A stretch of DNA of 64,000 nt from Mytilus edulis (lineage: Eukaryota), in NCBI RefSeq assembly GCF_963676685.1, contig NC_092352.1:78058001-78122000 (forward strand), written 5' to 3'. The notes beneath the pieces are model-generated. The model had not been told where the DNA came from and searched no databases. It saw only the letters and a list, made by a program, of their open reading frames with translations. Made by a program: the position numbers and the translations under genes. Below are positions 2,641 through 64,000 of the stretch, in pieces (the first letter of the stretch is position 1; each line of letters begins with the position of its first letter).

Positions 2641-2961
2641 AATAAACTCATCATAGATACCAGGACTAAATTTTATATATACGCCAGACGCGCGTTTCGT
2701 CTACAAAAGACTCATCAATGACGTTCGAATCCAAAAAAGTTAAAAACAAAACCAAACAGCCAAATAAAGTACCAAGTCGAAGAGCATTGAGATCCAAACG
2801 TCCTAAAAGTGTTGCCAAATACAGATAAGGTAATCTATGCCTGAGGAAGAAAAGCCTTTGTTTTTAAAAAAATTCTAAATTTTATAAACAGTTAATTTAT
2901 AAATATAACAATATCAATGATATTTCATGTCAGCACAAAAAGTGATGACTACTGGGCTTGT
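2641..2961 (-). mobile_element. Short non-autonomous retroelement (retrozyme/PLE-derived) carrying a hammerhead ribozyme, copy 1
   Basis: Reverse complement aligns over ~300 bp with 59372-59670 and with the copies at 30427, 32942, 35022 and 44261. It contains the hammerhead motif at 2681-2724. Confidence 0.75.
2681..2724 (-). ncRNA. Minimal type I hammerhead ribozyme with mutated core (UUGAUGA)
   Basis: Minus strand reads acgtca-TTGATGA-gtct tttgt agac-GAAAC-gcgc-GTC-tggcgt; the first C of the CUGAUGA box is replaced by U. Confidence 0.7.
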
Positions 2962-29500: not shown

Positions 29501-30426
29501 GATAAAATCCGTAATTATTGTTAAAAGTATGGTTGTCTATTTGGACAAATTTAGACAAGTTTGATTTACCCTTTTATGTCAAAAACTAATAACAAAATCA
29601 GATCTGATTCTGAAATTTCTGTGACATTTGTTTTTTGAATGCTCGCTGTTCGTGTACTAGAAAATCAAACTTGTTGACAAATTGTCGTTAAATACTAAGA
29701 GCTTGAGTCCATGAGTCTTGGTTAATGATTTTAGTTTACTTACTAACATTTCCACAAATTATAATCATAGTATTACATTTACTTTTCATCGGGGTGTAGT
29801 AAACCAATCATTATCTGTATGACACAGCTAATAATTAGTTCGGTCTTGTATTTTAAAAGGTCTTTCTTGATATAAACGATAGTCAAATTGAAGGTAGAAA
29901 GTTTCATTTAATTTCAATTAAATAAGGTATACTCCAATATAGAACAAACACATTTGTGTCCAGAGTAAAATCCGAGACAAGTGGTATTTACAGCATTGTG
30001 ATTATTTTATTTTTCATATGCACTTGTATGGCATCTAATTGGAACTGTAGTGGAGAAGTGTATACAAGAAAACCAGATGTTTGTATTTACTGTACATGTA
30101 CGTACTATCAACTACAAAACGACATTTGCTGACATCTATGTCTTATTAACTATCAGTTGCATACTTTTGTGTTTGTGTCTGCCATTTAAATGTGTGTTTC
30201 AATTTTGTAGTCAGTAGTGTACGTGTTGTATGTCTCTGATATATGATAACACAGTTAAGTCAGTCCAATATATTGGCACATTAACCAATTATGTCTGTTT
30301 GGGTTGCTCACCTAGTTTCGTCAATATAATGGAATGAAAAAACAATCTGGCTGTATAGCTCGTTAAACTACCCATGTTTATGACAGCTATTTTTAGGTTC
30401 GCTTTTATTGACAAAATTGGGTTAAT

Positions 30427-30655
30427 TAGTTATCAAAAGTACCAGGATTATCATTTTATACGCCAGACGCTCGTTTCGTCTACATAAGACTCATCAGTGA
30501 CGCACAGATCAAAAGAGTTAAAAAGCCAAATAAATACAAAGTTGAAGAGCATTGAGGATAAAAAATTCCTAAAAGTTGTGCCAAATATGGCTAAGGTAAT
30601 CTATACCTGGGGTAAGAAAATCGTTAGTTTTTGGAACAATTCAAAGTTTTGTAAA
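30427..30655 (-). mobile_element. Hammerhead-bearing short retroelement, copy 2
   Basis: Aligns with 59440-59670. Hammerhead at 30460-30503: gcgtca-CTGATGA-gtct tatgt agac-GAAAC-gagc-GTC-tggcgt. Confidence 0.75.
30460..30503 (-). ncRNA. Minimal type I hammerhead ribozyme (core intact, stem III loop GAGC)
   Basis: All conserved core nucleotides are present. One change makes loop III non-palindromic. Confidence 0.8.
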
Positions 30656-31621
30656 CACCACTACCAGAAATACTTGGTTTATGTGACAATATAAGGCTCC
30701 AGCAGCCAAATCCAATCATCCTTTACTACTATATTGTACTTCCAATGATAAAAACGAATTGGAATCGATATTATATGCATAATTCAATTATAAACATCAT
30801 ATGAAGTTTTCTATTCAATATTTATAAATTTACAGAAAACAATCCTGACCAATTGTTGGCCATTACGGTATTTAGAACACGATATAAGCAAGAACATGGT
30901 ATTGAAATATGATTATGAACACTGTTTTTGACCTGACACGTTCACAGGAAGACATTACACCATATAGGGATTCCGATCGGTACTCTAACTTGAAGCCTAC
31001 CAGGCTTTAGTCTTACCCATTTAAACACGTATTATGTATCAGATTTTTGAAAAGCCATCTATTTCAATGTAAATCCGTGCTTCAAAGATCGTCAGTTTAC
31101 AGAAAATGTTTTATTATTTTCCGCGCAATCTTTAATTACTATTCTTGTCTGGAATCTGTGACATATTTACGACATCTTCATTACAAAATAAATTAATATG
31201 GTCACATTAATAGGTCAAACGACTTGCTAGAAGACATGATATAAACTTTTTAATTAATCAAAAATCTTAATACTAAGACGTCAGGATTAAGCTACGGAAT
31301 TAGTCTTATCTACATAAATTAATTGACTTTTAAAACTATGCTTTATCATTGATTTACAACACACGACTTAGACTTATTTTCAAGGTTCCTCTTTAGGTGT
31401 TCAAAGCTAGTTACTACAGAAGAAATGCGCTTTGCATCAAGAACTTGGAATAAATTCGAGTCTGTAATGCCTGGAAGGGAACATTGGAATTAATTCTTTT
31501 TTTTAATGAAAAAGAATAACATTTTGTATTGAATAAAACACTTTACAATAAAGGTTCTTTTTCCCTTTTGAAATCCATTATCATGGTAAATGTACCTGCG
31601 TGATAAAAACTTTATGATTTA

Positions 31622-32941: not shown

Positions 32942-33147
32942 ATCATCATAGATACCAGGTTTTAAATTTTGTAATTGCACCAGACGCGCTTTTCGTCTAC
33001 AAAAGACTCATCAGTGACGCGCGAATAAAAAAAGAGTTAAAAATGTCAAATAAAGTACAAAGTTGAAGAGCATTGAGGACCAAAAATTCCAAAAAGGTTT
33101 GCCTAATGCAGCTAAGGTATTCTATTCCTGATGAAAAAAAGCCTCAG
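32942..33147 (-). mobile_element. Hammerhead-bearing short retroelement, copy 3
   Basis: Hammerhead at 32977-33020: gcgtca-CTGATGA-gtct tttgt agac-GAAAA-gcgc-GTC-tggtgc (stem III C>A mismatch). Confidence 0.72.
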
Positions 33148-35021
33148 TCAATGATGCAAAGTTTCTAAAATTTAGGACGCATCCCACTTGGACAGAGTTG
33201 TACTTTTTTTCTTTTTTTTTTTTATCGAATTAGCAAAGCTTCAGACCGATATTGAATCTCTGGTTGGTTCAAAATAAAGATTTCAAATAGCGAAACCGGG
33301 ACAGTAGATATATACATATATATAATCGTGCTGAAAATTTATAAACTAAAACCTTAAAAATTCGGTTTGACATATAACTTAAGTACACTAGGGAGATACA
33401 TATATAGAAAACTGACAACTGAACACTCTATATGATATACAAACATAAACAAAAATAAAGTTTGGATCTAGATCTAGACGCTTGCCGTGTTTATAACAAC
33501 ATGAACAACACATGTTTGAAATTCATTTTACTTGTTATGTAAACACAAAATGTACCTGTTTGACATTTAGCACACATTCGTCCAGTCACTTAGCAAATAC
33601 AGTAAATACCAGTTCAACTTAATCTAAAGCTTGCATTTTTTCATATAGCATACTTTCATGAGACTCTTTTAGAAAATGTCGAATTAAAAAAATTGTTTTT
33701 ATTATAAATGATTACTCTATATCGATAGAAAGCATTTCTGTTCGTGCAAATATGTTTATACATGTACCAATTTAGCTTCAAAGAGATTTTATATTCAATA
33801 GTCCATTCCTCTTCATATTATATGTATTAAAATGTTTTTGTTTGTTTCCTTTTGCATAGAATATTCTATAAACATGATTAAGTGGTACAAATTGAACAAA
33901 TTGCAAAATTTCATCAAAGTGGTTCTTTTATTCCTATAAATTGCAGATCTTTAAAGACTGAATTGCATACAAAAGTATGTTGAATAGTTTTTAAGTGCTA
34001 GATTGACAACAGGGAATTTGTTAAAATCCTAATATGAGATTGTAAAATAGAAATGTTTTGGTCATTCACCTTGTATTCATAAGCCAATAGCAACAGTCAA
34101 GGTTTATTTAAAAGAAAACAAAAGGAATGATATGCATTTTAAGTGGTAGAGCAGAACTTGTAAATTAAAAAGGTCAAACTCTATATGCAACAGTCAACTT
34201 CTGTGAATATAGATAACGCTAAGTAACGCTGTAACTCAATCAAATATATTTCAATAACAAGCTGATATGACATATTCTATTCTAAATATTCCCACGTGTC
34301 TAAGTATTTTTTTAATTAAGTTGTTTTTCTTGTTCTTAAAAATCTTCTTAAACAATATAAGAACATGAGGTAATTGTTGGGATTTTACAACCAACCTTTG
34401 AAGACAAAGATTCTTTTTTCAGGAATGACATCTTTTATTAGATTTCTCGACAATATTAAAACATTAGTAGAGTTGAAGGACCAAGTTCTAATAATGGCAT
34501 ACTTTTCCATCATGTTTAATACTGTTTTTGCTTAACAATGTAATGAAGACAATAATCAATAATGAGAGATATCTATATGTTTAAACGAAATATACAAGGT
34601 CATATAAACTTCAAACATTAAACAGGGGGAAGTATCTTGCCTAAAACGGTTTCCATTGTTTACAGATCATAACACAAGTATTTATTTTATTTGACATGGT
34701 ATTTAGAGGTTGCTTGTTAATCATTCATGACATAAAAAAAGTAAAGTTATATGGACAGAATCGTTTGCATTCAGAAAAATATTCTCCTCCATGTACAAAA
34801 ACTGATGAAATATATATTTTTTTTATCAGGAAATCTATGTTTTTGAGTCAGGAATATGACAGTTGTTGTCCATTCGTTTTGTGTCATTTAATTTAGCTAT
34901 TTGATTAGGGACTTTTCGTTTTAAAATTTCCTCGGAGTTTAGTATTATTTGGTAATGATACTTTTGTTTTTAAAATCAAACTGTCATCAGGTATGCTAAA
35001 AGTTTGTTTCTTTAGATGTCA

Positions 35022-35170
35022 ATAAACTCATCATAGATGCCAGTACTAAATTTTGTTTATACGCCAGACGCGCGTTTCGTCTACAAAAGACTCATCAGTG
35101 ACGCTCGAATTCAAAAAAGTTAAAAAGGCCAAATAAAGTACGAAGTTGAAGAGTATTGAGGACCAAAATT
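35022..35170 (-). mobile_element. Hammerhead-bearing short retroelement, copy 4 (5'-truncated)
   Basis: Close match to 2641-2800 and contains an intact hammerhead. Confidence 0.75.
35061..35104 (-). ncRNA. Intact minimal type I hammerhead ribozyme
   Basis: Minus strand: gcgtca-CTGATGA-gtct tttgt agac-GAAAC-gcgc-GTC/tggcgt. Stem I is 6 bp with two G-U pairs, stem II is 4 bp, and stem III/loop is the palindrome ACGCGCGU. Confidence 0.88.
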
Positions 35171-36853
35171 ACTATTACTATTATGCATATGTAGCTACGA
35201 AAACAAGTACAGTTTTTTTTTAATATTTAACAGTTTTATCAACAATCAGTCTTCCACTGCATTTCTCAAATTTGTCGTAAAGTTGTTGGTTGTGTATAGA
35301 CCATGGTTCATTAGTAGGAGGAAAATTCAAAACAGAAAGTCCGTCAACAAATGGCAAAACTAAAAAACATCAAACACATCAAACGAATGGACAACAACTG
35401 TCACATTTCTGATTTGGTACATGTAACAACAATCACATTCCTGACTTGGTATCAAAACTTGTGTTATGGACAGTGAACAGCTATATACTATTATTGTCTT
35501 TGTTTATCTACTATTTTTCATATGTAGAAAATGGTAGATTAAACCTGTTTTTGTAGCTAGCTTACCCTCTGACTTGTATGGCAGTCGCATTAAATTCTAA
35601 TATATTGACAACGATCTGTGGACAAAACAAACAGACATAATACATGTAATACGTAAAAAAATCAAAAATATTTGAATAAAATAAACATGTTTATGGAGCA
35701 ATTATAATAGCAAGAAAATTACGTTAGTTAATAATTGTTAAAAGTGCATCAGTCTTATCTGACAAAATAATTCAAAGTATCAGAAACTAATTTACATTTC
35801 AACGTAATTAATTGAAAGCATATTACAATCTAAATTAATCTCATTCAAAGTAATACCTGTAAATCAAATGGCAAAATATGCATATTGGATCATAATAATA
35901 CGTTATTCTTTACAAGTTTTGTCTGATGACGGAACCATGATATTTTTCTTGATTTACTACCGTGAAAGTATCGCGATATAAAGTTACTGGCATGTAGATG
36001 TTTTATAATATTGAAGAGAATAATAAAATGGTTTTATTGTTGCATATATTAGAATTAAGAGATCCAAAATTTCTTTGAAAACAAAGAAAGTATGCTAATT
36101 GTTATCACCCTTGTTTCCAGAACTGATAATTCAATAATGCAAATCTTTGCAGATCAGTAGATAACATATCGAAAAAAAAATCTCTATAAAAACAGATTGT
36201 ATCAGCGAATGTTGTACAACACGATATTTCCCTACTATTGACTATAAACTTGAAATATTTTAAAAGCTTGGCAAGCCTTACGTTTTAAATTTAGAATATA
36301 ATCTGCATCGAGTAAAGACATATGGTATCACGTGTGATGCAGCAGATTTATAAACATAATGGTTGCATTTTGTAAATACAGCTGTTACTCAAACCACGCC
36401 TCTTTTTGGGAGAAATATAATATTCATAGATAATTAATGTTGTTTACGCACTGGTTCCCAGATATTATCTATTTGTTTTATCTCTTAGAGCCATAACTTT
36501 AATATGTTATCATCAAATATACATATGCATATCGATATCGGTTAAATAGAAATCTGCGGAACACCTAAAGTCAAGGTAAGGATAGTTCAGAATTCGTTGG
36601 CCTTTTCACTTCACGTATATTTTATCATCCCCAGCCCGATCTGCAATATTGCTTATTGCGCTTACATATACAAATAACGTAAGACAACTATCAACAAATC
36701 AATAAATCATATCCGGCTGAGAACCCGACGTCACTCTTTGTATTTTACTTCCTTCTGGGTGAAACAAGGTTTAGTGTCATGGCATATGCCTTAGATTAAA
36801 AACAAAATTACGGAAATCGTAATAAAAGAAGCTAGTAACATTTCCGCTTGTCT

Positions 36854-37321
36854 TTTTCATTTCCTATTGTTAATTATCCATTTCTAGATGGTGACGTTCC
36901 CTTGTCACCATCTTATGGTGTTTATATATCTCAACTTGTACGATTCGCTCGTGTATGTAACAATGTATTAGATTTTAGCGAGAGAAATTTATGTATTACT
37001 GAAAAATTATTACACCAGGGTTTTCGATATCACAAACTGGTCAAAACATTTACTAAATTTTATCACCGGTATAAGGAAATAATTCGTAAATATAACTCAA
37101 CATGCAGACATCTTATACGTTCAGGTATTTCACATCCAAAATTTTATGGAAATATTCTTTATAAAGCACAAAAATGTCAGTATTCTCCTCAGAAACTAAC
37201 AAAACCTTTAAATAGACTTATTAAAAGGGGATATAGTTACGATACTGTTGTCAGGTCATTAAAGATTGCATATTTTGGCTTTAACATTGATTCACTGATA
37301 GGATCTTTGCATCGGAACTAA
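36854..37321 (+). pseudogene. C-terminal fragment of Penelope-like reverse transcriptase (thumb/C-terminal helical region), open but 5'-truncated
   Basis: FSFPIVNYPFLDGDVPLSPSYGVYISQLVRFARVC...KLLHQGFRYHKLVKTFTKFY matches the FPIVNFPFL..NIP.SPAYGVYISQLIRYARAC...KLL.QG....L...F.KFY motif of invertebrate PLE RTs. The track's TTG start lies in host flank. No GIY-YIG follows before the stop. Confidence 0.85.
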
Positions 37322-37375
37322 ACACATTTATTTCTTAAAAAAACAGTTGTTGGCATGACACGGGTTATGTTCTTC

Positions 37376-37442
37376 TCATATATTTTATGATAGTATGATA
37401 CTAAACCCCTAACGGGAGGGATTGTACCTGATATTCATATGA
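37376..37442 (+). promoter_or_regulatory. Putative SECIS element (type II-like) in the PLE 3' UTR
   Basis: ATGAT (37387-91), helix II AGTATGATACT (37392-402), AAA (37403-05), ministem CCC/GGG (37406-16), helix II GGGATTGTACC (37418-28), TGAT (37429-32). Helix I is tcatat/atatga. Helix II has 9 of 11 pairs including G-U. It lies ~65 nt after the ORF stop. Confidence 0.65.
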
Positions 37443-38843
37443 TGAAGACATAATCTTTCAATCAGTTTAATTGAGGTCTGGAGCTGGCATGTCAGTTAAC
37501 TGCTAGTAGTCTGTTGTTATTTATGTATTATTGTCATTTTATTTATTTTCTTTTGTTACATCTTTTGACATCAGACTCGGACTTCTCTTGAACTGAATTT
37601 TAATGTGCGTATTGTTATTCTTTTACTTTTCTACATTGGCTAGAGGTATAGGGGGAGGGTTGAGATCTCATAAACATGTTTAACCCCGCCGCATTTTTGC
37701 GCCTGTCCCAAGTCAGGAGCCTCTGGCCTTTGTTAGTCTTGTATGATTTTAATTTTTAGTTTCTTGTGTATAATTCGGAGTTTAGTATGACGTCCATTAT
37801 CACTGTACTATTATGCATATTTTAGGGGCCAGCTGAAGGACACCTACGGGTGCGGGAATTCTCGCTACATTGAAGACCCATTGGTTGCCTTCGGCTGTTG
37901 TTTGCTCTATGGTCGGGTGGTTGTCGCTTTGACATATTCACCATTTCCTTTCTCAATTTTATTGTTAATGAAAATTCGTGCTTTTATATTTGAAAGAAGG
38001 ATTGTTTCAGTTGCTTTAACATGGTTGTACGTGATGTAAAACAATTATTACTAGGTTATTCTCCCATATATTACCTAATGCCCTTTTTAAAGACTGTTAC
38101 TATTTCTATATAGGGTATTTGGTTCCATTATCCAGAAAATCGTAAGAGCCAGTGACAGCCCCATCTTCTAAAAAGATAAAATAAAAATGTGTTTTAGCAG
38201 TAATTAATCATTTGTTATAAAAATCATGTTTAATGGAAAATTGACTGCCAATGTGTTAGATTTCTCACGGACTAAGGTTTACATAAAATCCGAGACATTT
38301 AAGTTTTCTATAAAGTGGTTAGTTGACTGTTTGCAAATTGAGATTTAGTAAAACAAAAATACAGAACTCTGAGGAAAATTCAAAACGAAAGGTCCCTAAT
38401 CGAATGGCAAAGACAAAGCTCAAACACATTTAACACATGGATAACAACTGTCACAATCCTGATTTGGTACAGGCATTTCCTTATGTAGACAATAGTGGAT
38501 TAAACCTTGCTTTAAAGCTATCTCAACCTCTCGCTGTATGATAGTGGTATACTATTCCATTATATTGACAATGATGTGTGAACAAAACAAACAGACATAA
38601 AAGATTAAGATGTAAAAATAGGGATACGATAGTAAATATTGTGCTATAATCTTAATTACATAAAAAAGAAACTCAGAAACAAGAAAAGGGCATATAGAAA
38701 AAGCACATAAACAAACAAGGAAGACAATAATGCAAACGGATACCATAGAACAAACACACAATGACGGAATGTATAAGTACCGAAAATAAATGAAATGCAA
38801 ACGAATGAATTGATAACACTTATTTCAATAAATTTATGTCAAA

Positions 38844-42445: not shown

Positions 42446-44260
42446 AAAAGTCGAGATCAAAATTGATATTTTATTATTTTTATTAGAACGAAGGTTAAAT
42501 ATAGCGTAGTATCTTATGTGTCCATTTGTGTTAAATTTCCACAGGATATTAAAGTAGCGTGACGCATAACAGTTCCTCTTTTCTTTGGAGACGTAGCGTA
42601 CACCATGATGGAATCCGAGAAAAACGCGAAATAGGACGTTATAATTTGACGTTTTTTCATTGCTAGAAACAACGTCATAGAGCTTTTATGTCACTACCAA
42701 GTTGCGTTAGCTGATGCGCATAAACAATAGGCTGTTTGGTCTTTAATATCTATCTAAATCAACAGAATAATACATAACTTGTAAACGTTTGAAACTTTTA
42801 CTGAAGATTTGCTTCGCAGCGACATTCCGATGCTTGATCGTAAGCGAATTATCAGCCTTTTTTCTGTGGTTACATTTCATTTTTCATAGTTATATTTTAT
42901 AACATTGTATAAATCCAGAATAATCAACGGATGATTCTATTTCAATTATTCAACCCATTATTTTTCTTCCAAATGTCTTTTGCAGATTAAGATACTGGTA
43001 AATGGACGTTCGAGAAGATTTATTTGACATTTAATGGATGCATACGATTATCTTATTAACTGTTTGGTTAATTTTTTTCCTGTATATTTTGTTCTATTTT
43101 CATTTTTGTAAAGTATACATGGACTGTCCAATATTTTGACTTTATTGTTGCAATCTGACCATTCGTTGATTTTCTAAAGATATTTAAAAATGTTAAAAAA
43201 AACATGGCTGCGTTTCTCCTTTTTTAAAGTTGCATGTACTTGTAACAAAAAATATTATGTCATGTTCGAGTACCAACAATGATTAAAGTTGCTATTAAAA
43301 TTATCTAGAAGAGTATTTGAGCTCAGAAGGTCAGTCACTGGCGGAGATAAAAACTCTAAGATTGTGAATGGTTGTTGAATCTCAAATATCGTTTTTCCTA
43401 TGTCTGAAGAATCATTTGATTAGCTATTACCGCGTTGAAACTATTACCCATACTCCCTTTTAAAACCACAGGTAGATTATTAAATAACTAAATGAGTCTT
43501 TTTGACATTATATTGGGGTATATAAGCGTTGACTGAAGCACAAACATATTGTTTATTCAAAGCGTGGAAGATTTTTAAACTGAAAATATTCGCATTTTCA
43601 ACAGCTAGTAAACCTTTAAAATAACAACATTTATATGCTACATCCATAAAATATCAAATTCAATCACGACTTTCAATTGTTTTTCCATACCTCGTTTTAA
43701 TGTTGTCACGAAAAGGACACGCAGACAAATATATGTTGCATTTTAGAATATCTCGGTTAATGAGAATTTCTGAAATGCTTTAAACCTAATTGTATCATGT
43801 GTATATATAATTATTAGTCTGTACTATGTAATTATACCAAGTACCATAACATTTTGCCTACTATCCTATACTTTGTAGTGTTAAAGTCATGCATATTTGT
43901 CCGATATCTTATCTATTTACTCAATAATCGCTTCCGAATTTCTCATTTTAAAATTTTACGCTTTTATCATTCAAACATTAGGTGCAACGGCAGATATTCA
44001 CATGACTAAACACTAAGTCCACGATAACGAGTAATGTTGAAATAATTATTGGAAACACGACATGGAACCCTTTAAAGTCTATTTCCGTGTATATTTTAAC
44101 AGCATCGCGGGCTTTGGTTTTAATATACAATGTTTATCATGTGTTTTATCAATCATGGTCATGCATGGTGCTTAGCTGTTTAGTTCCGAGTAGGTTATGA
44201 GTTATGATTTAAGATCATAAAAAGCACTCTTTGAAATGGGTCATTTTTTGCTTTACAAAT

Positions 44261-44475
44261 AAACTGATCATAGATACCCGGATAAAATGTTATATTTACA
44301 CCAGATGCGAGTTTCGTCAACAAAAGACTCATCAGTGACGCTCGAATAAAACAAATGTGAAAAACGCCAAATAAGGTACGAAGTTGAAGAGCATTGCGGA
44401 CCAAAAATTAATAAAGTTTTGCCAAATACAGCTTAGGTTATCTATTCCTGAGGTAGAAAAGCCTTAGTAATTGAC
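44261..44475 (-). mobile_element. Hammerhead-bearing short retroelement, copy 5, with candidate 5-bp TSD
   Basis: Absent from the paralog at ~24015-24030 (gctttacaaacttgtg). Flanked by caaat (44256-60 and 44476-80). Degenerate hammerhead at 44298-44341 (CTGATGA...GAAAC tcgc ATC). Confidence 0.72.
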
Positions 44476-45469
44476 CAAATTTGTGTATTTAAGCATTGAT
44501 ATGCAACATTAAATTTCGAGAATATAGTCAATAAGACTGCGTAAACAATCAAATGTCCATATATACTTGATGATTTTCACCAACTGTCTCAAAAAACAAA
44601 TTCGGTATATATGTTCAAACATTACACACCCTAAAGCACTAAATATATGACTACAATTTCATGATACAAAATGTGTCAAAAGCTTAAATCTCATACAAGA
44701 TGAGAGCGGAACACCTGATCCTTCTATTATATTTCGCGAGGCAAGTGTATTGGAAGAAAATTATTGTAAAAAATATTGTTAATAGTACATGAAGAAGATG
44801 CTGTTAAATATATAGGCAACACTAAAATGTGTGCCTTAACTCCTAACGTGCTACAGGCAGTAAACCGTATCAACATTTATAATATTGATGTTGCATATGA
44901 AGACGGCGTGACGTGACATGCCATGAGTCGTCTAATTAGTCACGCCTCGATGACTTTAGATGTCAAACGTCATGTTGTTTATATTATTTTTATTTGATAA
45001 ATATATGTTATATGAAGAAATACTTAACATTTATCATTTAATTTGGGCATCCTGTTGGGTTAGAATTCATGTATTTTGGTGTTGCGCATTGGTTTGACCC
45101 ACTACCATGCCAGTTTCGCTTAAGGAGTACTTCGGTCATCTTTAATAAATCAAGAAATTGAAATTGATACTTTTAGTCGAAAGGGCATCAGTCATGCAGT
45201 TAAGGAACAAATTTAGCCAAAAATGTCATGGAGCTCCTTTTTGAGATATTTCAGTTTTACAAATTGTCGGGAAAAAGCTGACTCGGACATTTACCTTTAA
45301 TATGTATTTGTATTTTTTGGTCTCAAATCAAATGAACAAAAATTAAGAATCTGCTTAAATTTTGGAAAATGACCTTTTATGAGCTATTGAAGTATTAAAT
45401 GAATAGAAAAATGGATGTTATTTAGTGTTATGTGGATTGTTGCAAATAAATACTTTGGGAAAAATTGTC

Positions 45470-52139: not shown

Positions 52140-52511
52140 TAAAATTGAGAATGGAAATGGGGAATGTGTCAAAGAGACAACAACCCAACCATATATAGAG
52201 CAGACAACAGCAGGTCACCAACAGGTCTTCAATGCGGCGAAAAAATACCGCACCTGGAGGCGTCCCTCAGCTGCCCCCTAAACAAATATATATACTAGTT
52301 TAGTGATAATGAACGCCATACTAAACTCCATATTGTACACAAGAAACTAAAATTAAAATTAATACAAGACTAACAAAGACCAGAGGCTCCTTACTTGGGA
52401 CAGGCGCAAAAATGCGGCGGGGTTAAACATGTTTATGATATTTCAACCCTACCCCCTATACCAATGCAGAACAGTAAACGCATTACAATACGCATATTAA
52501 AATTCAGTTCA
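52140..52511 (-). mobile_element. 3'-terminal ~370 bp of a PLE related to 36853-37961, with TSD
   Basis: Reverse complement aligns to ~37590-37961. Absent from the left arm at ~11540-11550. Flanked by direct repeat atgctaa (52136-42 and 52512-18). Confidence 0.8.
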
Positions 52512-53946
52512 ATGCTAATTTGTTTATACTACAACAATGTTGGCGATGATGCTCTTATTGACTGTCACTTTAAGGGGTAACATCAACTCAGAAGTCAGTG
52601 TGTAAGTTATGTCAAATGTACATGTGGCATTCTGTATTGTGAATTGTCGATTCAAAGACAATGATATTACTCTACTAAATTATGATTTCATTTGGCCTTG
52701 GAGAGATTTAATTTATCTACTTCCAAATTAATAGTAGTCTTGGTCCATGGATAATTCGAAGATGAATAAATGAAAGATTAAGACAGCCAAAACTAGTAGA
52801 TGGAAAAAGATTTAATTTAGTTTCCCATTCAATAATAAATGTTTCACTGGGACGATGTTAAGAACAACCTCTATACATTGAGTACTGCCAAATGATTGCT
52901 GTACTAATTTAAAAATAAAAAATGATCTATTTTCGCAATATTACCATTCAATCTGATATCCGTGCATGTTCATATAACCAAACAAACAGGAAACAATATC
53001 TTGTTTTGAAATGTATTTGATACCGGAAATCAAATAGAAGGACGAAGTTGCGCTGATATTTTTTAACAATGGATATTCCACTAATCGATTAAACTCTAAG
53101 CACGAATCAATTGGAAGATATTTTAACCGAATTGAATGTCAGGATGGTATAATACCAGGATGGAAATTACGCTTTATTGCTTCGGAATTGATAATTATTC
53201 ACAGGAGGACTAAAATCAAATTATCTTCTTAAAAAACAAAGCTGTCTTCATGTGACACATTGATGAAGAAACTAACTTTTGAACTTTTGAATGTAATATA
53301 ACCACAATTATATAAATCAGTTATACAAGATTCGATTTTGTAACAGACATGTTAGGCATTTTAAATATCTAAAATAAAACAAATGTAAAGTTATATCATT
53401 ATAAAATCCTAATTCAGATTTTAGCACAAAATGATCCGGTAAAAATAATGCATGAATATCGTTATTTTTTTTAGAAACGTTGCCGTTACCGTATAAAAAT
53501 AGAATAAATGCGGACACCAAATAATAGGAACAGACAAACAACTCGTAGAAGTGAGAGACCAACACAAAAAAAAACACCATTAAGAATATACAAAAGAAAA
53601 AACATGAAAAGATAAGACAAACATACACTCACTACATGTATTAGGTAGAAAGAATCAACGACAAACTGACAAACAATGCCATGTAAATGCAGTAATATAA
53701 ATACATGTAGCAGATCATTAATATTAATAACACTACAGGCAAATTTGAATTCATTTGTGTATCATTATATTCTACAATTCTAATGATAGTGTCATGCAAA
53801 TGAATGTTGAACACTCCGTAATAAATCGTTTTTCGAATATTTCCCCCGGTTTTGTTCCTAAACGTTCCCGAGATATTTTTCCGAATGCGTTAACATAAAT
53901 TTTCGGTATTCACAATTGTTTATTGATATATATATATATATATATA

Positions 53947-54991
53947 TGTTCCGGACCATATGAGTATTTAGACCATACGCGTATGGTCATGACCATATGG
54001 GTATATACTCATATGGTCCGACCATACGCGTATGGTCGGACCATACGCGTATGGTCGGGGTAATTAACACTCTGTTACAGTTTACTTTTAATACTTCTAA
54101 ACTCTTCATATGGTATGACCGTTCATTCAAAAGACGCTATCATATAGGTAATTGTATCGTTATATTATAATAAAAAGATAAGCTAAATAAAAATAAGAAG
54201 TTTCACATTGTTAATTTTACTTAATTGTCAAATTTAAAGTAAACACATTTTATACCGATGGTCATTACCGATGGTCATAACCGTTATGTTATTACGAGTA
54301 AATGGCAATTTGTTGACTAAAAAATTAAATTCCAAAAATTTCTTAATGAACTGTTACATAAGAAGTCACTGGAAAGTAGCATACTATTAGTTTATTTAAG
54401 TTGTGTTGTGAAGATGGTGTATTGCAGTCAACCATTTTACGATATTTGAGATCTAGAGCTTCTTAAAAACACTGTAGACATCAGAATTGCCAAAGACCTC
54501 GGTATCACTGTACGCAGCTGCAAAAAAGGCTTGTTTTTCACTCGCAAACAAAATGTGTAAATGAAAAAGATCGTGCACAAAACTTGCAAATGCAAAAAAG
54601 CTATGATACCGTGAGGAAGTGAATGTCATCCAAGCCTACATGCACCAATGTAACTTGCGATGAAAACTAACTATGGCATCAATATTAAATTTTTACGTAG
54701 TTTTTTTTATTATAAAACTAAAAAATTGTCATGTTTTAAACCATCACTGTTTTTTTAGATAAAGTTCTTGTATTATTGAAACGTTTATAATGTAATTTGG
54801 AAAAATAAATATACCTATATGGTCCAAATACTCATATGGTCCGGCCCGTTAATAACTAAACGAGTATTATACTCATATGGTCCGACCATACGCGTACGGT
54901 CGGACCATACGCGTATGGTCGGACCATATGAGTATACGCATATGGTCATGACCATACGCGTATGGTCCAAATACTCATATGGTCCGGAACA
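53947..54991 (+). mobile_element. Non-autonomous Ginger2/TDD-like DNA transposon 1
   Basis: TGT...ACA termini (tgttccggaccatatgagtattt / aaatactcatatggtccggaaca), ~110-bp TIRs and tata on both flanks. Empty site in the left arm (~9425-9440). The interior has a decayed Cys-rich C-terminus of SCAND3/KRABA2-type integrases. Confidence 0.75.
54484..54670 (+). pseudogene. Decayed C-terminal Cys-rich tail of a Ginger2/SCAND3-like integrase
   Basis: Manual translation with two frameshifts: ELPKTSVSLYAAAKKACFSLANKMCK*KRSCT/KTCKCKKAMIP*GSECHPS/TCTN, matching the CxCxxxCxxxxCxCxKxxxxCxSxCH pattern. Confidence 0.55.
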
Positions 54992-55418
54992 TATACATAT
55001 ATACTTTTCATGACAAAGCATTTTCATATCGTTTATCTATGTTTCTAAAAATCATTTTCATTAATATTTATTGATGGAATTAATATATATGTCGTGTACA
55101 TTTTATTATTTTGTACAGGTTATTACTTGTACAAAATTTTCATACAAGTAATTACTTGTATGATGCCATCATACAGGTTATTACTTGTATGAATATAATT
55201 GTACAAGTAATAACCTGTACAAATTTTGTGGAGAAAAAGATAATAACTTGTACAACTCACTATCTTTCGTATTTTTTTTTAAATTTATATTGTGTTTGTT
55301 TTTCTGTTCTTATTTTCAAATGTTTATCAATATTTTTTTTGAAATGATAGAAGTTTGAAGATGAACGAAGGACGCAAAGTAATACTATAAGCTAACGTGA
55401 CAACTTGTGCAAATTTAG

Positions 55419-56060
55419 CTAAACAGCTTTTGTACCTACTTTATATTCATTTTCTGCAATATCAAGCACAACACCTTTGATGTTTTTACAGTCCATCGGC
55501 CCACGGTCTACTCTTTGTACTGGTATTATGACATTGTCTCCAATTTCTAAATCTTTCAATCTTTTTTTGGAAGAAGACAACATCTCATCGGCCTGTATTT
55601 GTTGGCCTGACAGGGCTCGTTTTCTCGCTGGTATTTTTTTGAAATTTGTGTCAACATCAGTTTCAGTGTTTGAGTCCAGATTGGTGTCAGTTTCAGTGTT
55701 TGTGTCCATATCGATTTCCATTTCAGTGTTTATCTCGAGATCTGTTTCCGTTTCAGTGTTTGTGTCAAGATCAGTTTCCGTTTCAGTGTTTGTGTCAAGA
55801 TCAGTTTCTGTTTCAGTGTTTGTGTCATGATCAGTTTCTGTTTCAGTGTTTGTGTCAAGATCAGTTTCTGTCTCAATGTTTGGTCTGACATTGTCGTCAC
55901 TAGTACATGTAGTAGCTGTTGTCAATGCAATTAAATCTTCTTCTGTTTCTAGAGTGTCAAGTAATTCTTTTGGAAGGGCTGACGATTCGTCACCTTTGCG
56001 AATGAGTTTTTCAATGCCTGCTACACTCAAAACATCATATTGAAGATTTATTGTCATCAC
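55419..56060 (-). pseudogene. Fragment of SCAND3/KRABA2-like (Ginger2) integrase, post-catalytic region, with in-frame acidic repeat
   Basis: SSALPKELLDTLETEEDL and RKRALSGQQIQADEMLSSSKK...IGDNVIIPVQRVDRGPMDCKNIKGVV...YKVGTK resemble the conserved segment downstream of the DDE core in this family. The DDE core itself is missing. The ORF lies inside a TIR element. Confidence 0.72.
55650..55880. repeat. 30-bp minisatellite (~7 units) encoding TNTETETDLD
   Basis: tcagtttctgtttcagtgtttgtgtcaaga repeated with a 30-bp period. Confidence 0.9.
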
Positions 56061-56681
56061 ACAATTTAATTATTTCATCATGAAATTTCTTTTCTATACT
56101 GTTTTCCATCTTAACACTTTAGTTTTTACTACTTAAATGAACAGTTTTGTTCATATATTTAATATATTAAATGTACTCACATATTGAGAGTTTATACCTT
56201 TAGGCAAAGTAATGAATTAAATGTTAAAAGGGAAACAATTTGTTGTGAACTTCAGATAGGCCAAGGTAAAATAATGATTTGTACAAGTTATTATCTTTTT
56301 CTCCACAAAATTTGTACAGGTTATTACTTGTACAATTATATTCATACAAGTAATAACCTGTATGATGCCATCATACAAGTAATTACTTGTATGAAAATTT
56401 TGTACAAGTAATAACCTGTACAAAATAATAACATGTACATTGTACACGACATATACAAGCGATAATGATTGTCATTTTGCACCCGATAATATCTGCGTCA
56501 TTATACAAATTAAGTTCGGTTATCAGTCAAATACGCAAGTCACGTGAGTAGAAATGTCTGTGGCAACATAAATCCTGTATGACTCAAGGTCATTCACTGT
56601 AAAAACAAACAGAGAAACAACAATCCACGAAATACTACTCAGACAACTGAAGATTGAGCTCGACGTATGCCACCAAATCTG

Positions 56682-56864
56682 GTTGGTTTTCCCGTTTGAA
56701 TGGTTTTACACTATTAATTGTGGGGCCCTTTATAGCTTGTTGTTCAGTGTGAGCCAAGGCGCCGTGTTGAAGACCGTACATTGACCTATAATGGTTGACT
56801 TTATAAATTGTTATTTGGATGGAGAGTTGTCTCATTGGCACTCACACCATATCTTCCTATATCT
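56682..56864 (+). repeat. R2 dispersed repeat copy, right-arm specific
   Basis: Matches 12340-12520 and the reverse complement of 62208-62370. It interrupts arm homology at the position equivalent to ~9030. Confidence 0.7.
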
Positions 56865-59371
56865 ATTGACATGATGTGCTTCAATAGGGTTATAATGACT
56901 TGATGCTCAAGAGAAACCTAAATTGCTCACTCGGTGGTCTAAATCGTGACGTCGTCTGTAAACTCAACCTTTGAATGGGTGATTTTAACTACACCATAAG
57001 GAAGACATTTTTGGAGCTTTATTTTTAGAAGATCCCCTTTCAAATATATCATATGTATAAAACAACTTGAAACCTCACCAAACCTTGAAATATCAAATTA
57101 ACTACGAGCCATACGATCCATGTTACGGTGTTGCCTTCTCTATGGTCGGGTTGTTGTCTCTTTGACACATTCCCCATTTCCATTCTCAATTTTATTAAAT
57201 GTCTTCCCTCTATTTTATTTTATGAATAACTGCATCTATCATACACACAGTGACCATGTAATTTTATTGGAGATTCTTTCTTTCTTTATTTCTTACATGT
57301 TTTTAAATATCTATTCACATATATAAATGTTCATGCACTATCATCCCCCTTTTCAAATACTTCTTTCCAAAGCGTATTATTTTAATTTATATAAAAGAAG
57401 ATGAAATATCCACAGACCCATATTATGTTTCATTGAATATCATGTTCTAAACATTGTCAGTTGAAGAAAAAAATCATTAATGAAATATCGTTTATTTTGA
57501 AATCTAGAAGTGCACATCCATTAATTGAATCACGGTTAGAACATGTGCATGATTACCAAACCACGTGCGCCACGCGATTTTCTGTTATTACGTTACCATG
57601 GATAATTGTCAACCTTGTTGTTAACATCATTCTTTTTGTCACAGTTACGTTAATTATTCCTTTCTTTTCCAAAAACATAGTTGGTGCTAGGCAATCATAT
57701 GCACTGGTTTGTTTCGATAAAAGTTATACATGCACCAAACCCGTAATACGATAAAAAAAAAGTGCAATTTCATCTTGTTATTAATTGTGCAGCATTATGT
57801 TTTTGTGACTGACATAGAAGGGATAAATCAAGTTATTCAATCAAAGTCGTGCATTTAATTAATGTTTCTGGTCATACCATTGTTTTATTTTAGTAATCTG
57901 TCAAAGTGTTAGTGCCCATATGCTAATATATTACATTTAATATTGCATCTGCTTCGTTTCACAGCCAAACATTTCAATTTAGGACTGTCGTGAATTACCA
58001 CGATTTGAGATAGTGGGCGGAAGGGGAAATAGATGAAGTTGGCAAGTTCTTTGTTTTGTAGCCTTTGTTATACTAAATTTTTTAAAAGAAATTGAAGAGT
58101 CTGAAGAAACAAAAACAGATAAAGTTTTTTGAAAACATTAGATTATCTCTCAAAAATATGTTCATGAAAAAAAGTAAAAACACAGAGTTACTGAACTGAA
58201 TGGCAAAATCAAATAAAAAACACATCAAATGAATGGACAACAACTGTCATATTTCTGACTTGGTACATGCATTTTCAAATGTAGAAAATTGTGAATTGAA
58301 CCTGGTTTAATAGCGCTCAACCTCTCACTTGTATGACAGTCGAATCAAATTCCGTTATATTTACAATGATGCGTGAACAAAACAAACATAATAGGTAAAA
58401 TAGTCAAAATATGGGCACAGAAGTTGTTACTGTGTCACAATCTCAAAACAAACAAATATTTAACATACAAGCTCCTTGTCAAATTTAAAAACCACATTCA
58501 TTGTTTCGCGTGTTTGATGTCAGAAAATGTTAAAAAAAAACATAATTTCACATGGGGAATGGTTAAAAAATCAAAAGTTATGTTACCAAACTACCGAACA
58601 GACTTAGAAGTTTGAGACTTCCATTCCATTTTCTATTCTAATATACAAAACCTAAAATTTCTTCCCTTTCAACATTTTGTTCAGTATGAACATTTCCAGA
58701 TGGAAAATAATGATTTAAATTTTTCTTGTCTCGTACATTGTCTTTTTAATATCTTTATTGTTAATTGATTATTTTATTATTTATTGATTACAAAAGGAGG
58801 GCTACATTTCTGGGTTCAGTCTGTAAAGACTTCTATTGTTTAGATTTGAATAATTGTCATCATGGTTAAATAAAATTGAGAATGGAAATGGGGAATATGT
58901 CAAATAGACAACAGAAAAGTATGTACATGTGTACATGTGTAGTATTATTTGGAATAATTGACATTATCAAAGTACATATGAAATCTGCATTACACAACAT
59001 AACTTCCTGTTAATCAATTTAGCTTGTCTGGCGTCATCAGTGCCCCGATTTGGTTGCAAAGGTTATAGAACAGCTGTTTAATACAGGGACAATCATACTT
59101 ATGATAAACAACGACTGCTGAATGTAATCATTAGTTACCAGTGCCGGTTATGCAAACGATTTTTTTTAATGTTTTATTTGGTTTTTCCAGCAATTATTAG
59201 TATAGTACATTCGTTCTAATATGTAACAACACACGGTTCGCAATACTTGTGAATTAAAGACAACAGTAGTTTACCGGTGTTTAAAGCGGGAGCGAGACGA
59301 ATGACATTAAAACCATCCTCTAAATAAAAAAGGTAAAAAAAAACAGAAAATGCATTAGCAAAGGTATATCA

Positions 59372-59670
59372 CAAGCCCAGTAGTCAACACTTCGGTGTTG
59401 ACATGAATATCAATAATGTGGTCATTTTTACAAATTTCATGTTAACAAAACTTTGAATTTTTCGAAAACGAAGGATTTTCCTATCCCAGGCATAGATTAC
59501 CTTAGCCGTATTTGGCACAACTTTTTGGAATTTTGGATCCTCAATGCTCTTCAACTTTTTACTTGTTTGGCTTAATAAATATTTTAATATGAGCGTCACT
59601 GATGAGTCTTATGTAGACGAAACGCGCGTCTGGCGTACTAAATTATAATCCTGGTACCTTTGATAACTAT
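59372..59670 (+). mobile_element. Hammerhead-bearing short retroelement, copy 6
   Basis: Homologous to the reverse complement of 2641-2961. Lies in a segment missing from the left arm (~6695-6715). Confidence 0.78.
59593..59636 (+). ncRNA. Intact minimal type I hammerhead ribozyme
   Basis: gcgtca (59593-98) CTGATGA (59599-605) gtct-tatgt-agac GAAAC (59619-23) gcgc GTC (59628-30) tggcgt. Predicted cleavage after C59630. Confidence 0.88.
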
Positions 59671-61851
59671 CGATATAGTACGATATAGAAGACTAAGAAT
59701 GAGCAACGAGAACCCCACCAAAAAACAGAGGGTGGTTCTAATGTGCACCAATAGACTTAACAAACCGTAGTCACAGTTACCAGTACTGTAATCAAACGTT
59801 ACTAAAACTGTATTCCACAAACTAAATCAATTGTCAAATATTTTGGTAATGATATGCCCTTTAATCTTGAATGAAAACTTCTAAGTATTTATGACTATAC
59901 ATCTTGTTATGGCCTAGATGATGAACTTCTTTTTATTTTGAATATATTATGTACGACTGTCACAAAAAAGAAGAGTATTAACTTTGACCATTATCATATA
60001 ACTTGAAACAATAAAACACGTTAATAATTGAGACAGGCAATACAATTGAATCACCGCTTACCCGACAGATCATGGGGCACTTGCAAAATAGCACTGTCAG
60101 ATAGAACGGCTCTCTTATATTTCATATGTGAAAAGTGGATTTGTAAACCTAAAAAAGAAATTAAGATTGTCATCCGGAAATCATTTCTCTATAAACATTT
60201 TTTATTCAGTGACCTTTATCTTTGACAAACTGATCACTAAATCAACAGGCTTCTACAAATGTACACCTTATCCATATCTTCTATCGATGTAATTTTTTTT
60301 TCACTTACATGCATGATATATTCCACCCAGAAAAGTATCCCCATGCTCTAAATCCAATAATTGTTTTTTTTTTAACATGCTTATATTGTCTAATGCATAA
60401 TAATGAATTTAATCAAATTGGCATGCGTTTAATATATTTCATTAACTTAAAAGACTTTCAAACTCTTAAATGATGCACATGTTGTTACTAATACATACTC
60501 CGAACTTGACATATATGATCTAGTTTCGATAACCATTTATACTGGCTGTTCAACTACTTCTCCCTCTGAAAAATCCACTTGTTCTAATCCGTATATGCCA
60601 ATAGTACTTGCAACTGAAATTTACACGCAACTTCGTTGATCTATTTGTCACTGCCAATGAGTTTAGGTCCCTACAAGTTGTAAATTTGTCAACTTCTGAG
60701 TACATCCTCCTGATATAAATGCAACGGAGTCAATTGTAATTATTTGTTCGGTTATTTTCAAGTTTGCCTTTTTAATAAACAGTTTTGCTTTCGTTTTTCA
60801 AAATTTAATACTTTGACTTTTTTTTCTGTTTCTTATTATTTTTTTATTATTTATAACTTTTGATGTAATGTCATTGGTTTTGTGAGTCTTCAGTGTATAT
60901 AAAGTGCGAATCCAGCTAGTTCATTTTTACTGTTATATGCGGGTATGTCTATTGTAGAATAAAGGATCATGGGAAAACTGTATTTGTTTACGTTTTGAAA
61001 ATATCAAGTTAAAGGATTTTAAGTTAAGTTTTAACATATTTTCATTGTGATATGTCTTTATAATATACAAACATAGCATTAAACTTCAAATAAGTGTTAT
61101 AAAAGCATCATAATATAGCATATCGATTATTGAAAGCGATCCATTTTAACTATAGATGCGATGAATTATCACTGTTAGTGCAGTCATTATTAATGTTGAA
61201 TTTTCAAAGATGCGAGGAATTTTTATTGTAGAATTATGTGATAAATGCACTTGCAACAAATGAAAAAAAACTTAGTTGATGACTTTAGGATTTATGATAC
61301 ATGTATTTTCCAATTGAAATACAAACTCCTCATGCATTCTTCATCAAATATATAGCTTTTCAAACTTGTAACAAAAGCGATTCTCAAAATGTCATATTGT
61401 ATTCTTCAGATTACGTTTCTCCTTGATTTTAACTTATATAGTGAATCACTGGAGCGTGACAGCAGCGGGCCCTCTTAAGCAGTCAGTGGGCCCCTACTTA
61501 TGAAAAATTCTAGATCCGCGAATGGATACTACCACAGAGGTAAAACCATGCAGATTTGGGTTATTGTACACGAAATGCATGCTACAATTCATTTTTGTTG
61601 ATTTTAGACCCTTTGGAACTCTATGTGGGCTATTTCAGTAACTAGGCAAAAAATCCCCAAACTTGATACATGGTCAGATTCAGCATGTCAACGAATTCCA
61701 AATATCTATATTAAAGGACTTTTGTCTATAAATTTGGACCCCACAAAATTGAAAAAGGGACCAAAAATATGAAAAAATGCATGCATCGGATACTTTTGTG
61801 ATTGAAGGCATGACTGTAACAATAGGATGAATATACAAAAATATCTTTTTC

Positions 61852-63738: not shown

Positions 63739-64000
63739 TTTCTTGATAGAGGGTTGTTGCTCACAAGGAAGCTATTAAATCAAGAGTTCCAAATGGTGAA
63801 ATTGAAATCATCTCTTCGTATATTTTACGGACGCCAGCACGAGTTGGTTGACCGTTATGGAATAACCGTTTCACAAATGATATCGAATATGTTCCTTACG
63901 TCGTAACTACAATCCCCTTCCCTTTTATAAATGTGACCTACCGAATTAGACTATTTACCGGATTTGGTGTCTCATAAGCAACACGACGGGTGCTACATGT
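63739..64000 (+). mobile_element. 5'-truncated Penelope-like retroelement of a second family (RT C-terminus 63739-63906 plus start of 3' UTR; runs off the window)
   Basis: Not in the ORF track. Manual translation gives FLDRGLLLTRKLLNQEFQMVKLKSSLRIFYGRQHELVDRYGITVSQMISNMFLTS*, homologous to DFSERNLCITEKLLHQGFRYHKLVKTFTKFYHRYKEIIRKY of the 36854 ORF. Confidence 0.78.

What the first reader, a model, noticed from the sequence alone, without database searches (positions are those of the whole stretch)
59593..59636. Six dispersed minimal type I hammerhead ribozymes in one short repeat family
Seen: the motif gcgtca-CTGATGA-gtct(N5)agac-GAAAC-gcgc-GTC-tggcgt occurs at 59593-59636 (+) and at 2681-2724, 30460-30503, 32977-33020, 35061-35104 and 44298-44341 (-), about one per 10 kb. 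Two copies are perfect. Established: PLE-associated and animal non-LTR retrozyme hammerheads have this very short palindromic stem III, are thought to cleave as dimers, and retrozymes making circular RNAs have been described in mussels. Inference: these are monomeric relics of a ribozyme-processed non-autonomous retroelement mobilised by PLE RTs such as those at 36854 and 63739.
Basis: partly seen in the sequence, partly recalled or inferred. Interest (0 to 1): 0.75.

Follow-up and report, generated by a model that had tools for sequence, protein, structure and literature searches.

The report
Mussel retrozyme hijacks Naiad retrotransposon signal
The six motifs are shortened copies of a known self-cutting, circle-forming mussel repeat, and intact copies elsewhere in this genome share a predicted hairpin, next to the same fixed end, with Naiad jumping genes, which likely identifies the enzyme that copies them.

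Summary
All six motifs are real, but only two are fully intact. They are 5'-truncated copies of the published Mytilus non-LTR retrozyme (354/365-nt tandem units; 11,714 exact hammerhead cores in the genome), so the ribozyme and its circRNA are already known. The part beyond that: most insertions end 36-52 nt 3' of the cut site, just before a ~65-nt predicted hairpin that all six window copies lack. The same hairpin (61/71 nt identical, E=4e-18, compensatory changes) opens intact Naiad Penelope-like elements, including the family of the RT scrap at 63739, and their insertions end in the same register. It was not found in the 36854 family or at C-terminal-endonuclease PLE loci. The Naiad protein therefore likely mobilises this retrozyme, starting next to the shared module on an uncut or circular template. 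A 2020 review said no motif pointed to the helper; my eight paper searches did not find this link. This scan's notes show four agents reached the same link on other mussel DNA; I saw them only after finding it. Protein binding and RT initiation are untested.

The parts
59593..59636 (+). Type I hammerhead, intact core; stem I GCGUCA/UGGCGU, stem II 4 bp, stem III 2 bp with palindromic GCGC loop; predicted cut after C59630
59367..59670 (+). Subfamily-1 retrozyme copy, 98% identical to the 354-nt unit, unit positions 91 to +40; holds only the last ~18 nt of the module
59325..59776 (.). Stretch absent from the paralogous site at 6696-6698; the retrozyme copy sits next to (probably inside) a decayed Naiad-A-like 3' UTR fragment on the minus strand (59684-59748, 79%)
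30423..30657 (-). Subfamily-1 copy (88.5%), unit 164 to +43; hammerhead at 30460-30503, loop III altered
2641..2961 (-). Subfamily-2 copy (82%), unit 103 to +47; hammerhead at 2681-2724 with C3>U
32943..33148 (-). Subfamily-2 copy (84%), unit 201 to +40; hammerhead at 32977-33020 with stem III broken
35017..35168 (-). Subfamily-2 copy (89%), unit 264 to about +51; intact hammerhead at 35061-35104
44257..44482 (-). Subfamily-2 copy (86%), absent from the paralogous site at about 24021; apparent 5-bp target duplication that overlaps the element's own 3' end; hammerhead 44298-44341 damaged
63739..64000 (+). 3' fragment of Naiad family A (RT C-terminus and 3' UTR, 91-95% to intact tandem copies); family A carries the shared module and is the likely helper
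36853..37966 (+). 3' fragment (99%) of a Naiad family with four in-frame TGA codons and a SECIS-like element at 37377-37441; module not detected, so not supported as helper

Best explanation
The six motifs are 5'-truncated copies of the known mussel retrozyme, a ~355-nt protein-less repeat that is likely copied into the genome by the reverse transcriptase/endonuclease of Naiad retrotransposons, which would recognise a ~65-nt hairpin module that the repeat shares with them. Steps: (1) tandem source arrays are transcribed, mainly on the hammerhead strand (shown for one RNA run); (2) the hammerhead cuts multimers into monomers and a host ligase closes them into circles (published for M. galloprovincialis); (3) a Naiad protein binds the module, nicks AT-rich DNA and starts reverse transcription a few bases 5' of the module, about 40-45 nt downstream of the ribozyme cut site (inferred from the fixed 3' ends); (4) because copies run across the cut site, the template was a religated circle or an uncut multimer (inferred); (5) copying usually stops early, giving sub-monomers without the module such as the six here, which would be dead on arrival, and sometimes runs on for several units, giving new source arrays.
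For: Identity: 354-nt arrays up to 8.9 units, 98-99% to the window copy; 11,714 exact cores, control 0; the printed M. galloprovincialis 375-nt retrozyme matches subfamily 2 by eye, 41 of 42 nt over the hammerhead. Fixed 3' end: 54 of 72 young subfamily-1 insertions end at +36 to +52, mode +41 to +44, with scattered 5' ends; loose read ends pile at +41 to +43 in both an RNA run and contig runs; some insertions have an adjacent inverted 5' copy, a PLE trait. Shared module: unit +45 to +115 matches Naiad A at 61 of 71 nt, E=4e-18, the only match between the unit and that element; Naiad A ends cluster 0-5 nt before the module, as do Naiad B ends (B is 56% identical to A in protein); a third Naiad family in a metagenome contig has it at the same place. 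It is the best-conserved block, with the hammerhead, across five retrozyme families; 96% of cells pair, 5 of 21 pairs have double changes, 0 of 500 shuffles reach the covariation score. Specificity: no model hit at 18 loci around C-terminal-type GIY-YIG matches apart from two embedded retrozyme copies; 0 of 54 retrozyme and 0 of 27 Naiad A ends sit on (TA)n against 22 of 30 GIY-YIG loci. Precedent for internal RT initiation on uncleaved RNA 3' of the hammerhead: PAc (PMC11167929).
Against: No binding or reverse-transcription data. The antisense strand of the module folds as well or better (-31.7 vs -29.3 and -33.4 vs -27.6 kcal/mol), so an RNA-level role on the sense strand is not fixed by energy. 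The double changes in helix 1 all come from one family (3 related Naiad B rows of 12), and the shuffle control ignores relatedness. Target duplications are short and seen in a minority (6 nt or more in 12 of 54 vs 3.4 expected, one of the 12 being an internal duplication). The very abundant 36854 Naiad family transposes without a detectable module. Tandem-joint reads cannot tell circles from multimers, and no pile-up of RNA ends was seen at the cut site. The active hammerhead fold is not the predicted minimum for the 44-mer (-5.7 vs -9.2) or for the circle. Only four Naiad families were examined.
Confidence: 0.72

Rival explanations
1. Same helper, different step: the module acts as DNA. The Naiad GIY-YIG endonuclease recognises it in a multimeric cDNA or DNA intermediate and cuts just beside it, which sets the fixed 3' end.
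For: The D. virilis Penelope endonuclease needed the 'tail' sequence to recognise DNA (cited in PMC11167929); Craig et al. attribute tails to endonuclease resolution; both strands fold; many paired positions are invariant in sequence.
Against: An invariant U-G pair and other G-U pairs fit the sense RNA; double compensatory changes suggest structure over sequence; in PAc the ends mapped to RT start sites on RNA.
Confidence: 0.12
2. The module is an RNA-processing element (an unrecognised ribozyme or nuclease signal) that cuts Naiad multimer RNA just 5' of itself, standing in for the hammerhead Naiads lack; fixed insertion ends would be RNA 3' ends.
For: It sits at the very start of the Naiad unit; 24.6 identical 83-nt units made of the module alone precede one full-length Naiad A, and 2.9 precede another, both starting at the insertion-end position, which implies a defined RNA end or jump point there.
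Against: No Rfam ribozyme match over it; no RNA end pile-up there; multi-unit insertions read through it; ends are spread over about 7 nt.
Confidence: 0.08
3. The similarity is only ancestry: the retrozyme arose from a Naiad 5' end plus a captured hammerhead, keeps the hairpin for its own transcription or stability (it includes a B-box-like 11-mer), and is now moved by another RT or by DNA-level satellite processes.
For: Many C-terminal-endonuclease PLEs with their own hammerheads and intact ORFs are present; vertebrate retrozymes resemble pLTRs of hammerhead-bearing PLEs (10.64898/2026.07.22.740005).
Against: Young 98-99% copies still end in the Naiad register; the other PLEs mostly sit on (TA)n and lack the module; T-runs in the unit argue against Pol III read-through (own knowledge).
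Confidence: 0.06
4. The repeat is an ambisense, viroid-like circle: the module's antisense strand is a second hammerhead for RNA-to-RNA replication.
For: In subfamily 1 the antisense strand reads like a minimal hammerhead with one core change; cloned circles did not match the genome exactly (PMC7229834).
Against: The canonical-core variant occurs 66 times against 4,332 for the non-canonical (1.5%); stem II is mismatched; the GAAA block is the most variable part of the module and is missing in the other families.
Confidence: 0.02

Closest known systems
Mytilus galloprovincialis non-LTR retrozyme (Cervera and de la Pena 2020, PMC7229834; PMC4918200 Additional file 11)
   Same: 350-390-nt tandem units, two hammerhead families, low GC, no ORF; unit length 354 vs construct Mg353; printed 375-nt sequence matches subfamily 2 by eye.
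   Different: The papers, in the parts I read, do not report the fixed 3' end or the Naiad-shared module; the 2020 review says no conserved motif points to the helper. Exact-core count here is 11,714 against about 5,000 motifs in the older assembly.
Naiad Penelope-like elements (Craig et al. 2021, PMC8557442)
   Same: N-terminal GIY-YIG, DKA motif, C-terminal RT, partial tandems, 5' truncation, no canonical hammerhead; abundant in bivalves.
   Different: No shared structured 5' module or non-autonomous Naiad partner in the sections and passages I read; families A and B here do not sit on (TA)n.
PAc Poseidon PLE mechanism (Frangieh et al. 2024, PMC11167929)
   Same: RT starts inside the RNA, 3' of the hammerhead cut, on uncleaved template, in an AC-rich stem-loop; AT-rich targets; genomic ends fall on RT start sites.
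   Different: PAc is autonomous, has a C-terminal endonuclease and carries its own hammerhead; here the signal would be used in trans by a hammerhead-less Naiad.
Vertebrate retrozymes as PLE pLTR derivatives (bioRxiv 10.64898/2026.07.22.740005)
   Same: Retrozymes as non-autonomous PLE derivatives; monomer relics dispersed.
   Different: There the homology is to hammerhead-bearing pLTRs in Xenopus; invertebrates were not tested. Here the homology is limited to a hammerhead-free module of Naiads.
SINE/LINE pairs (own knowledge)
   Same: A short non-coding element shares an RT-recognition stem-loop with its autonomous partner.
   Different: In SINEs the shared part is the copied 3' tail; here it lies just beyond the insertion's 3' end, so only circles or multimers can pass it on.

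Membership tests
Type I hammerhead ribozyme (Rfam RF00163) | Core CUGANGA...GAAA...UH with three helices | tested here: met
   Intact in 59593 and 35061, core intact in 30460, damaged in 3 of 6; Rfam hits at 4 of 6, just under the gathering score
Type I hammerhead ribozyme (Rfam RF00163) | Site-specific self-cleavage | not testable with these tools
   Published for a cloned mussel repeat, about 0.1/min; no end pile-up in one RNA-seq run
PLE minimal hammerhead (min-HHR, PMC4209133) | No helix III, unpaired base between A9 and G10.1, long helix II | tested here: not met
   2-bp helix III with tetraloop, no extra base, 4-bp helix II
Metazoan non-LTR retrozyme | Short (150-450 nt) tandem units, each with a type I hammerhead, low GC, no ORF or LTR | tested here: met
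   354-nt arrays of 2-8.9 units elsewhere in the genome; window copies are truncated solos
Metazoan non-LTR retrozyme | Sequence identity with the published Mytilus retrozyme | tested here: met
   By-eye match to the printed 375-nt sequence; the 2020 paper's own supplement could not be read
Metazoan non-LTR retrozyme | Expressed as RNA | tested here: met
   5,815 of 8.7 million records in one RNA run, strand ratio about 4-5 to 1; one study, no silent control laid
Metazoan non-LTR retrozyme | Circular RNA form | tested here: inconclusive
   Unit-to-unit joint reads fit circles or multimers; circles published for M. galloprovincialis
PLE-mobilised element | Fixed 3' end, variable 5' truncation, partial tandems, inverted 5' copies | tested here: met
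PLE-mobilised element | Mobilised in trans by a named PLE protein | not testable with these tools
   Inferred from the shared module and end register
Naiad (for the 63739 and 36854 fragments) | N-terminal GIY-YIG, DKA motif, C-terminal RT | tested here: met
   Full-length relatives show the order and DKA; Pfam finds RVT_1 in A and N-terminal GIY-YIG in B, A and B 56% identical
Naiad (for the 63739 and 36854 fragments) | No canonical hammerhead | tested here: met
   No Rfam hammerhead in L238, L225, L138; no CTGANGA on the sense strand of A or B

The most novel reading that the evidence does not exclude
The ~65-nt module is the cis signal at which Naiad retrotransposons start reverse transcription, and mussel retrozymes are chimeras that fused this signal to a hammerhead, so that a self-made RNA circle is rolled into the genome by a ribozyme-free PLE: a named helper-parasite pair, a defined start site, and a reason why only circles and multimers propagate.
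Probability: 0.65. Interest if true: 0.75.

Novelty: new variant of a known kind. Interest (0 to 1): 0.6.

Why it matters
How animal retrozyme circles get back into the genome is an open question; the 2020 review says the repeats show no motif that reveals the helper. A shared, covarying module in register with both elements' insertion ends names the helper (Naiad, unexpectedly the PLE clade without hammerheads) and the start site, and makes the question testable with the in vitro assay already set up for PAc. It also gives a first candidate RNA signal for Naiad retrotransposition, a dominant element of bivalve genomes. The six window copies themselves are ordinary relics.

Tried and rejected
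Antisense second hammerhead: rejected on variant counts and cross-family loss of GAAA. C-terminal-endonuclease PLEs as helper: their hammerheads differ, BLAST hits to the unit were embedded retrozyme copies, no module. The 36854 family as helper: no module even with filters off, best E 2.5. A 28-29-nt match between the retrozyme 3' end and Naiad B's 3' UTR is a captured fragment, present in 6 of 25 family-B loci, not a shared end. Module as known ribozyme: no Rfam match; threading it by eye onto the HDV fold failed. Permuted hammerhead in Naiad A or B: no CUGANGA block on the sense strand. Pfam on the three short window ORF scraps gave nothing useful. The run search listed no holder on record as RNA; runs X1 and X2 are only guessed to be RNA and are not used as expression evidence. 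There are no read data on the Naiad junction. 40 of 58 metagenome pattern hits were GC-rich and dropped unexamined as likely chance. One row label was wrong: L240:5237-5309 is a subfamily-2 retrozyme copy, not a Naiad. The within-array test was thin: 5 of 7 units of one array are identical and all 7 share one variant not seen in the two other arrays listed, which fits one rolled template but also local homogenisation. A sequence look-up in the scan's notes returned nothing.

Full report
OBSERVATION. The six 44-mers are present as stated. The core pattern matches 4 times against 0.18 expected, and Rfam Hammerhead_1 hits 4 of 6 just under its gathering score. 59593 and 35061 are intact, 30460 keeps the core with an altered loop III, and 2681, 32977 and 44298 are damaged. 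The cut would follow C59630. Stem III is 2 bp with a GCGC loop, inside an 8-nt palindrome that could pair between two copies (-13.3 kcal/mol); the active monomer fold scores -5.7 against a minimum of -9.2.

WHAT THE REPEAT IS. The window lies in a 1.37-Gb genome. The copy at 59367-59670 is 98% identical to 304 nt of a 354-nt unit found in arrays of up to 8.9 copies. The genome has 11,714 exact 32-nt cores, control 0. There are two main subfamilies, 354 and about 365 nt; two window copies belong to the first, four to the second. This is the published mussel retrozyme: PMC7229834 describes 350-390-bp repeats, two hammerhead families, self-cleavage at about 0.1/min and abundant circles (passages and sections 14 and 17; supplement not readable). 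The printed M. galloprovincialis 375-nt sequence matches subfamily 2 by eye (PMC4918200 Additional file 11, one passage). In a position-blind 600-kb sample, 24 copies span the hammerhead after 5 of 29 from an older long family were set aside; 15 of 24 keep the 11 core positions. Non-CpG core positions differ at 13 of 238 sites against 323 of 2,454 in the flanks (Fisher p=3e-4). Much of that gap probably reflects divergence between source lineages and BLAST selection, not selection on each copy. One RNA run gave 5,815 of 8.7 million records, about 4-5 to 1 in the direction expected for hammerhead-strand RNA in the usual stranded libraries, with unit-to-unit joints and no pile-up of ends. This is one study and no silent control was laid.

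INSERTION ANATOMY. Segmental duplications in the window give two empty sites: 44259-44476 against about 24021, with an apparent 5-bp duplication, and 59325-59776 against 6696-6698. Of 72 young subfamily-1 insertions in all G000 loci then held, 54 end at +36 to +52 from the cut (mode +41 to +44), while 5' ends are scattered; many of these loci were chosen by searches, but the position-blind sample shows the same clustering and loose read ends fall at +41 to +43. Some insertions have an adjacent inverted copy. Target duplications of 6 nt or more occur in 12 of 54 against 3.4 expected; none of the 54 ends on (TA)n. Since copies run across the cut site, the template was a religated circle or an uncut multimer (inference). 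These traits match PLE insertions (PMC8557442 section 6) and internal RT initiation on uncleaved RNA shown for PAc (PMC11167929 parts 1-2 of 4).

THE SHARED MODULE. Directly after the fixed end the unit has a ~65-nt predicted rod-like hairpin (z=-3.3). Intact tandem copies of the 63739 family (Naiad A, 1,000-aa ORFs, period 3,370) continue, right after their own 3'-end site, with this module: 61 of 71 nt identical, E=4e-18, the only match between unit and element. Of 110 alignments of the Naiad A junction to held loci, 34 end at positions 303-312 (module starts at 308), 69 are cross-matches to modules ending at 370-377, 4 run through and 3 end elsewhere. The exact Naiad A module occurs 127 times in the genome. 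Naiad B (1,053 aa, 56% identical to A) has the module in the same place, with an inserted hairpin and compensatory changes in the outer stem, and its copies end just before it. A third Naiad family (81% to A) in a metagenome contig has it too, as does a different retrozyme family in other contigs (18 AT-rich loci of 58). Two more ~350-nt hammerhead families in this genome carry it, and across five families the module and the hammerhead are the conserved blocks. On a MAFFT alignment of 12 sequences the consensus has 21 pairs, 96% of cells pair, 5 pairs show double changes, and 0 of 500 shuffles reach the covariation score, with the caveat that relatives inflate this and the helix-1 changes are one event. 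A covariance model finds no hit in the window, none in the 36854 family, and at 18 loci around C-terminal-type GIY-YIG matches only two embedded retrozyme copies; in the blind sample it finds 7 hits. Those other PLEs have their own hammerhead-like motifs, and 22 of the 30 GIY-YIG loci have (TA)n shortly downstream. At one locus, 24.6 identical 83-nt units consisting of the Naiad A module precede a full-length element, and 2.9 do at another; the unit starts at the insertion-end position, which again makes this spot a start or jump point of the copying reaction.

MECHANISM. Shown: family identity, transcription in one run, fixed ends, shared and covarying module, matching end register, absence of the module from the other PLE loci tested. 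Published: self-cleavage and circles. Inferred: Naiad protein binds the module and primes reverse transcription just 5' of it on a circle or multimer. Because the signal lies beyond the first base copied, sub-monomer copies like the six here lose it and would be dead on arrival; only copies longer than about one unit can found new sources. Rivals are a DNA-level endonuclease signal (both strands fold), an RNA-processing role, mere ancestry, and an ambisense ribozyme (66 against 4,332).

WHAT IS KNOWN. The element and its ribozyme are known. PLEs were proposed as helpers in general, and a 2026 preprint ties vertebrate retrozymes to hammerhead-bearing pLTRs but did not test invertebrates (parts 1-3 of 5). 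The 2020 review states that metazoan retrozymes show no motif that reveals the helper (PMC7761336, passages). Craig et al. report Naiads as lacking canonical hammerheads and say retrozymes may exploit PLEs (passages, sections 6 and 8). PMC4209133 (parts 1-2 of 4) defines the minimal hammerhead, which this is not. PMC10085705 (passages) does not mention Naiads. Eight searches turned up no paper with the Naiad link in what I read; the library lacks most subscription papers, and the supplements of PMC8557442, PMC7229834 and the preprint were not seen. The scan's own notes hold four unchecked reports of the same link on other mussel DNA; I opened them, and they are not independent evidence.

VERDICT. 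Observation confirmed; first reading partly supported. The window copies are ordinary relics of a known retrozyme. The Naiad partnership through a shared start module is the new and testable part. Interest 0.6.

Noticed in passing
window 36853-37966 (+); L225: Young, very abundant Naiad family (period 4,031; many identical copies) with four in-frame TGA codons, at positions where related Naiads have cysteine (including eight residues after DKA), and a SECIS-like element about 55 nt after the stop (30.9 bits, under the gathering score). Likely a mussel selenoprotein Naiad; section 8 of PMC8557442 lists only two clam and two spider families.
   Followed up: partly
L300:2189-4230; L301:3106-3344: Perfect 83-nt tandem arrays made of the Naiad A module alone, directly 5' of full-length Naiad A copies on two chromosomes; L302 has a 201-nt version. 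May reflect a mini-circle or repeated RT jumps; assembly error not excluded.
   Followed up: partly
L050, L089, L090, L092, L094: An older, longer repeat (67-74% to the unit) with a decayed hammerhead followed by Naiad-B-like 3' UTR sequence; probably a retrozyme piece captured in a Naiad 3' end.
   Followed up: partly
L138:2090-2118; L170-L175: A 28-29-nt retrozyme 3' fragment with an apparent 5-bp duplication is fixed in the 3' UTR of a Naiad B subfamily (6 of 25 loci).
   Followed up: yes
L222, L228 (and L249, L250, L276): Further ~345-350-nt tandem families with different hammerhead variants (longer palindromic stem III, altered stem II) and the same module.
   Followed up: partly
L002:1388-1398 (unit +51 to +61): The module contains an 11-mer resembling a Pol III B box (consensus recalled), but the unit's T-runs would stop Pol III.
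   Followed up: no
window 6134-17182 vs 46662-60333; 22518-24667 vs 42742-45122: Old segmental duplications, one inverted and one direct, 75-92% identical.
   Followed up: no
window 55095-56439: 172-bp terminal inverted repeats (97%) around a 215-codon minus-strand frame with a 30-bp tandem repeat; looks like a small DNA transposon; no Pfam hit.
   Followed up: no
window 18777-22722: Tandem repeat with 1,184-bp period, up to 98% identical, each unit containing a Naiad-B-like 3' fragment.
   Followed up: no
L108, L109, L118, L147: C-terminal-endonuclease PLEs with a possible extra zinc-finger-like frame between the RT-EN stop and a hammerhead about 800-900 nt downstream.
   Followed up: no
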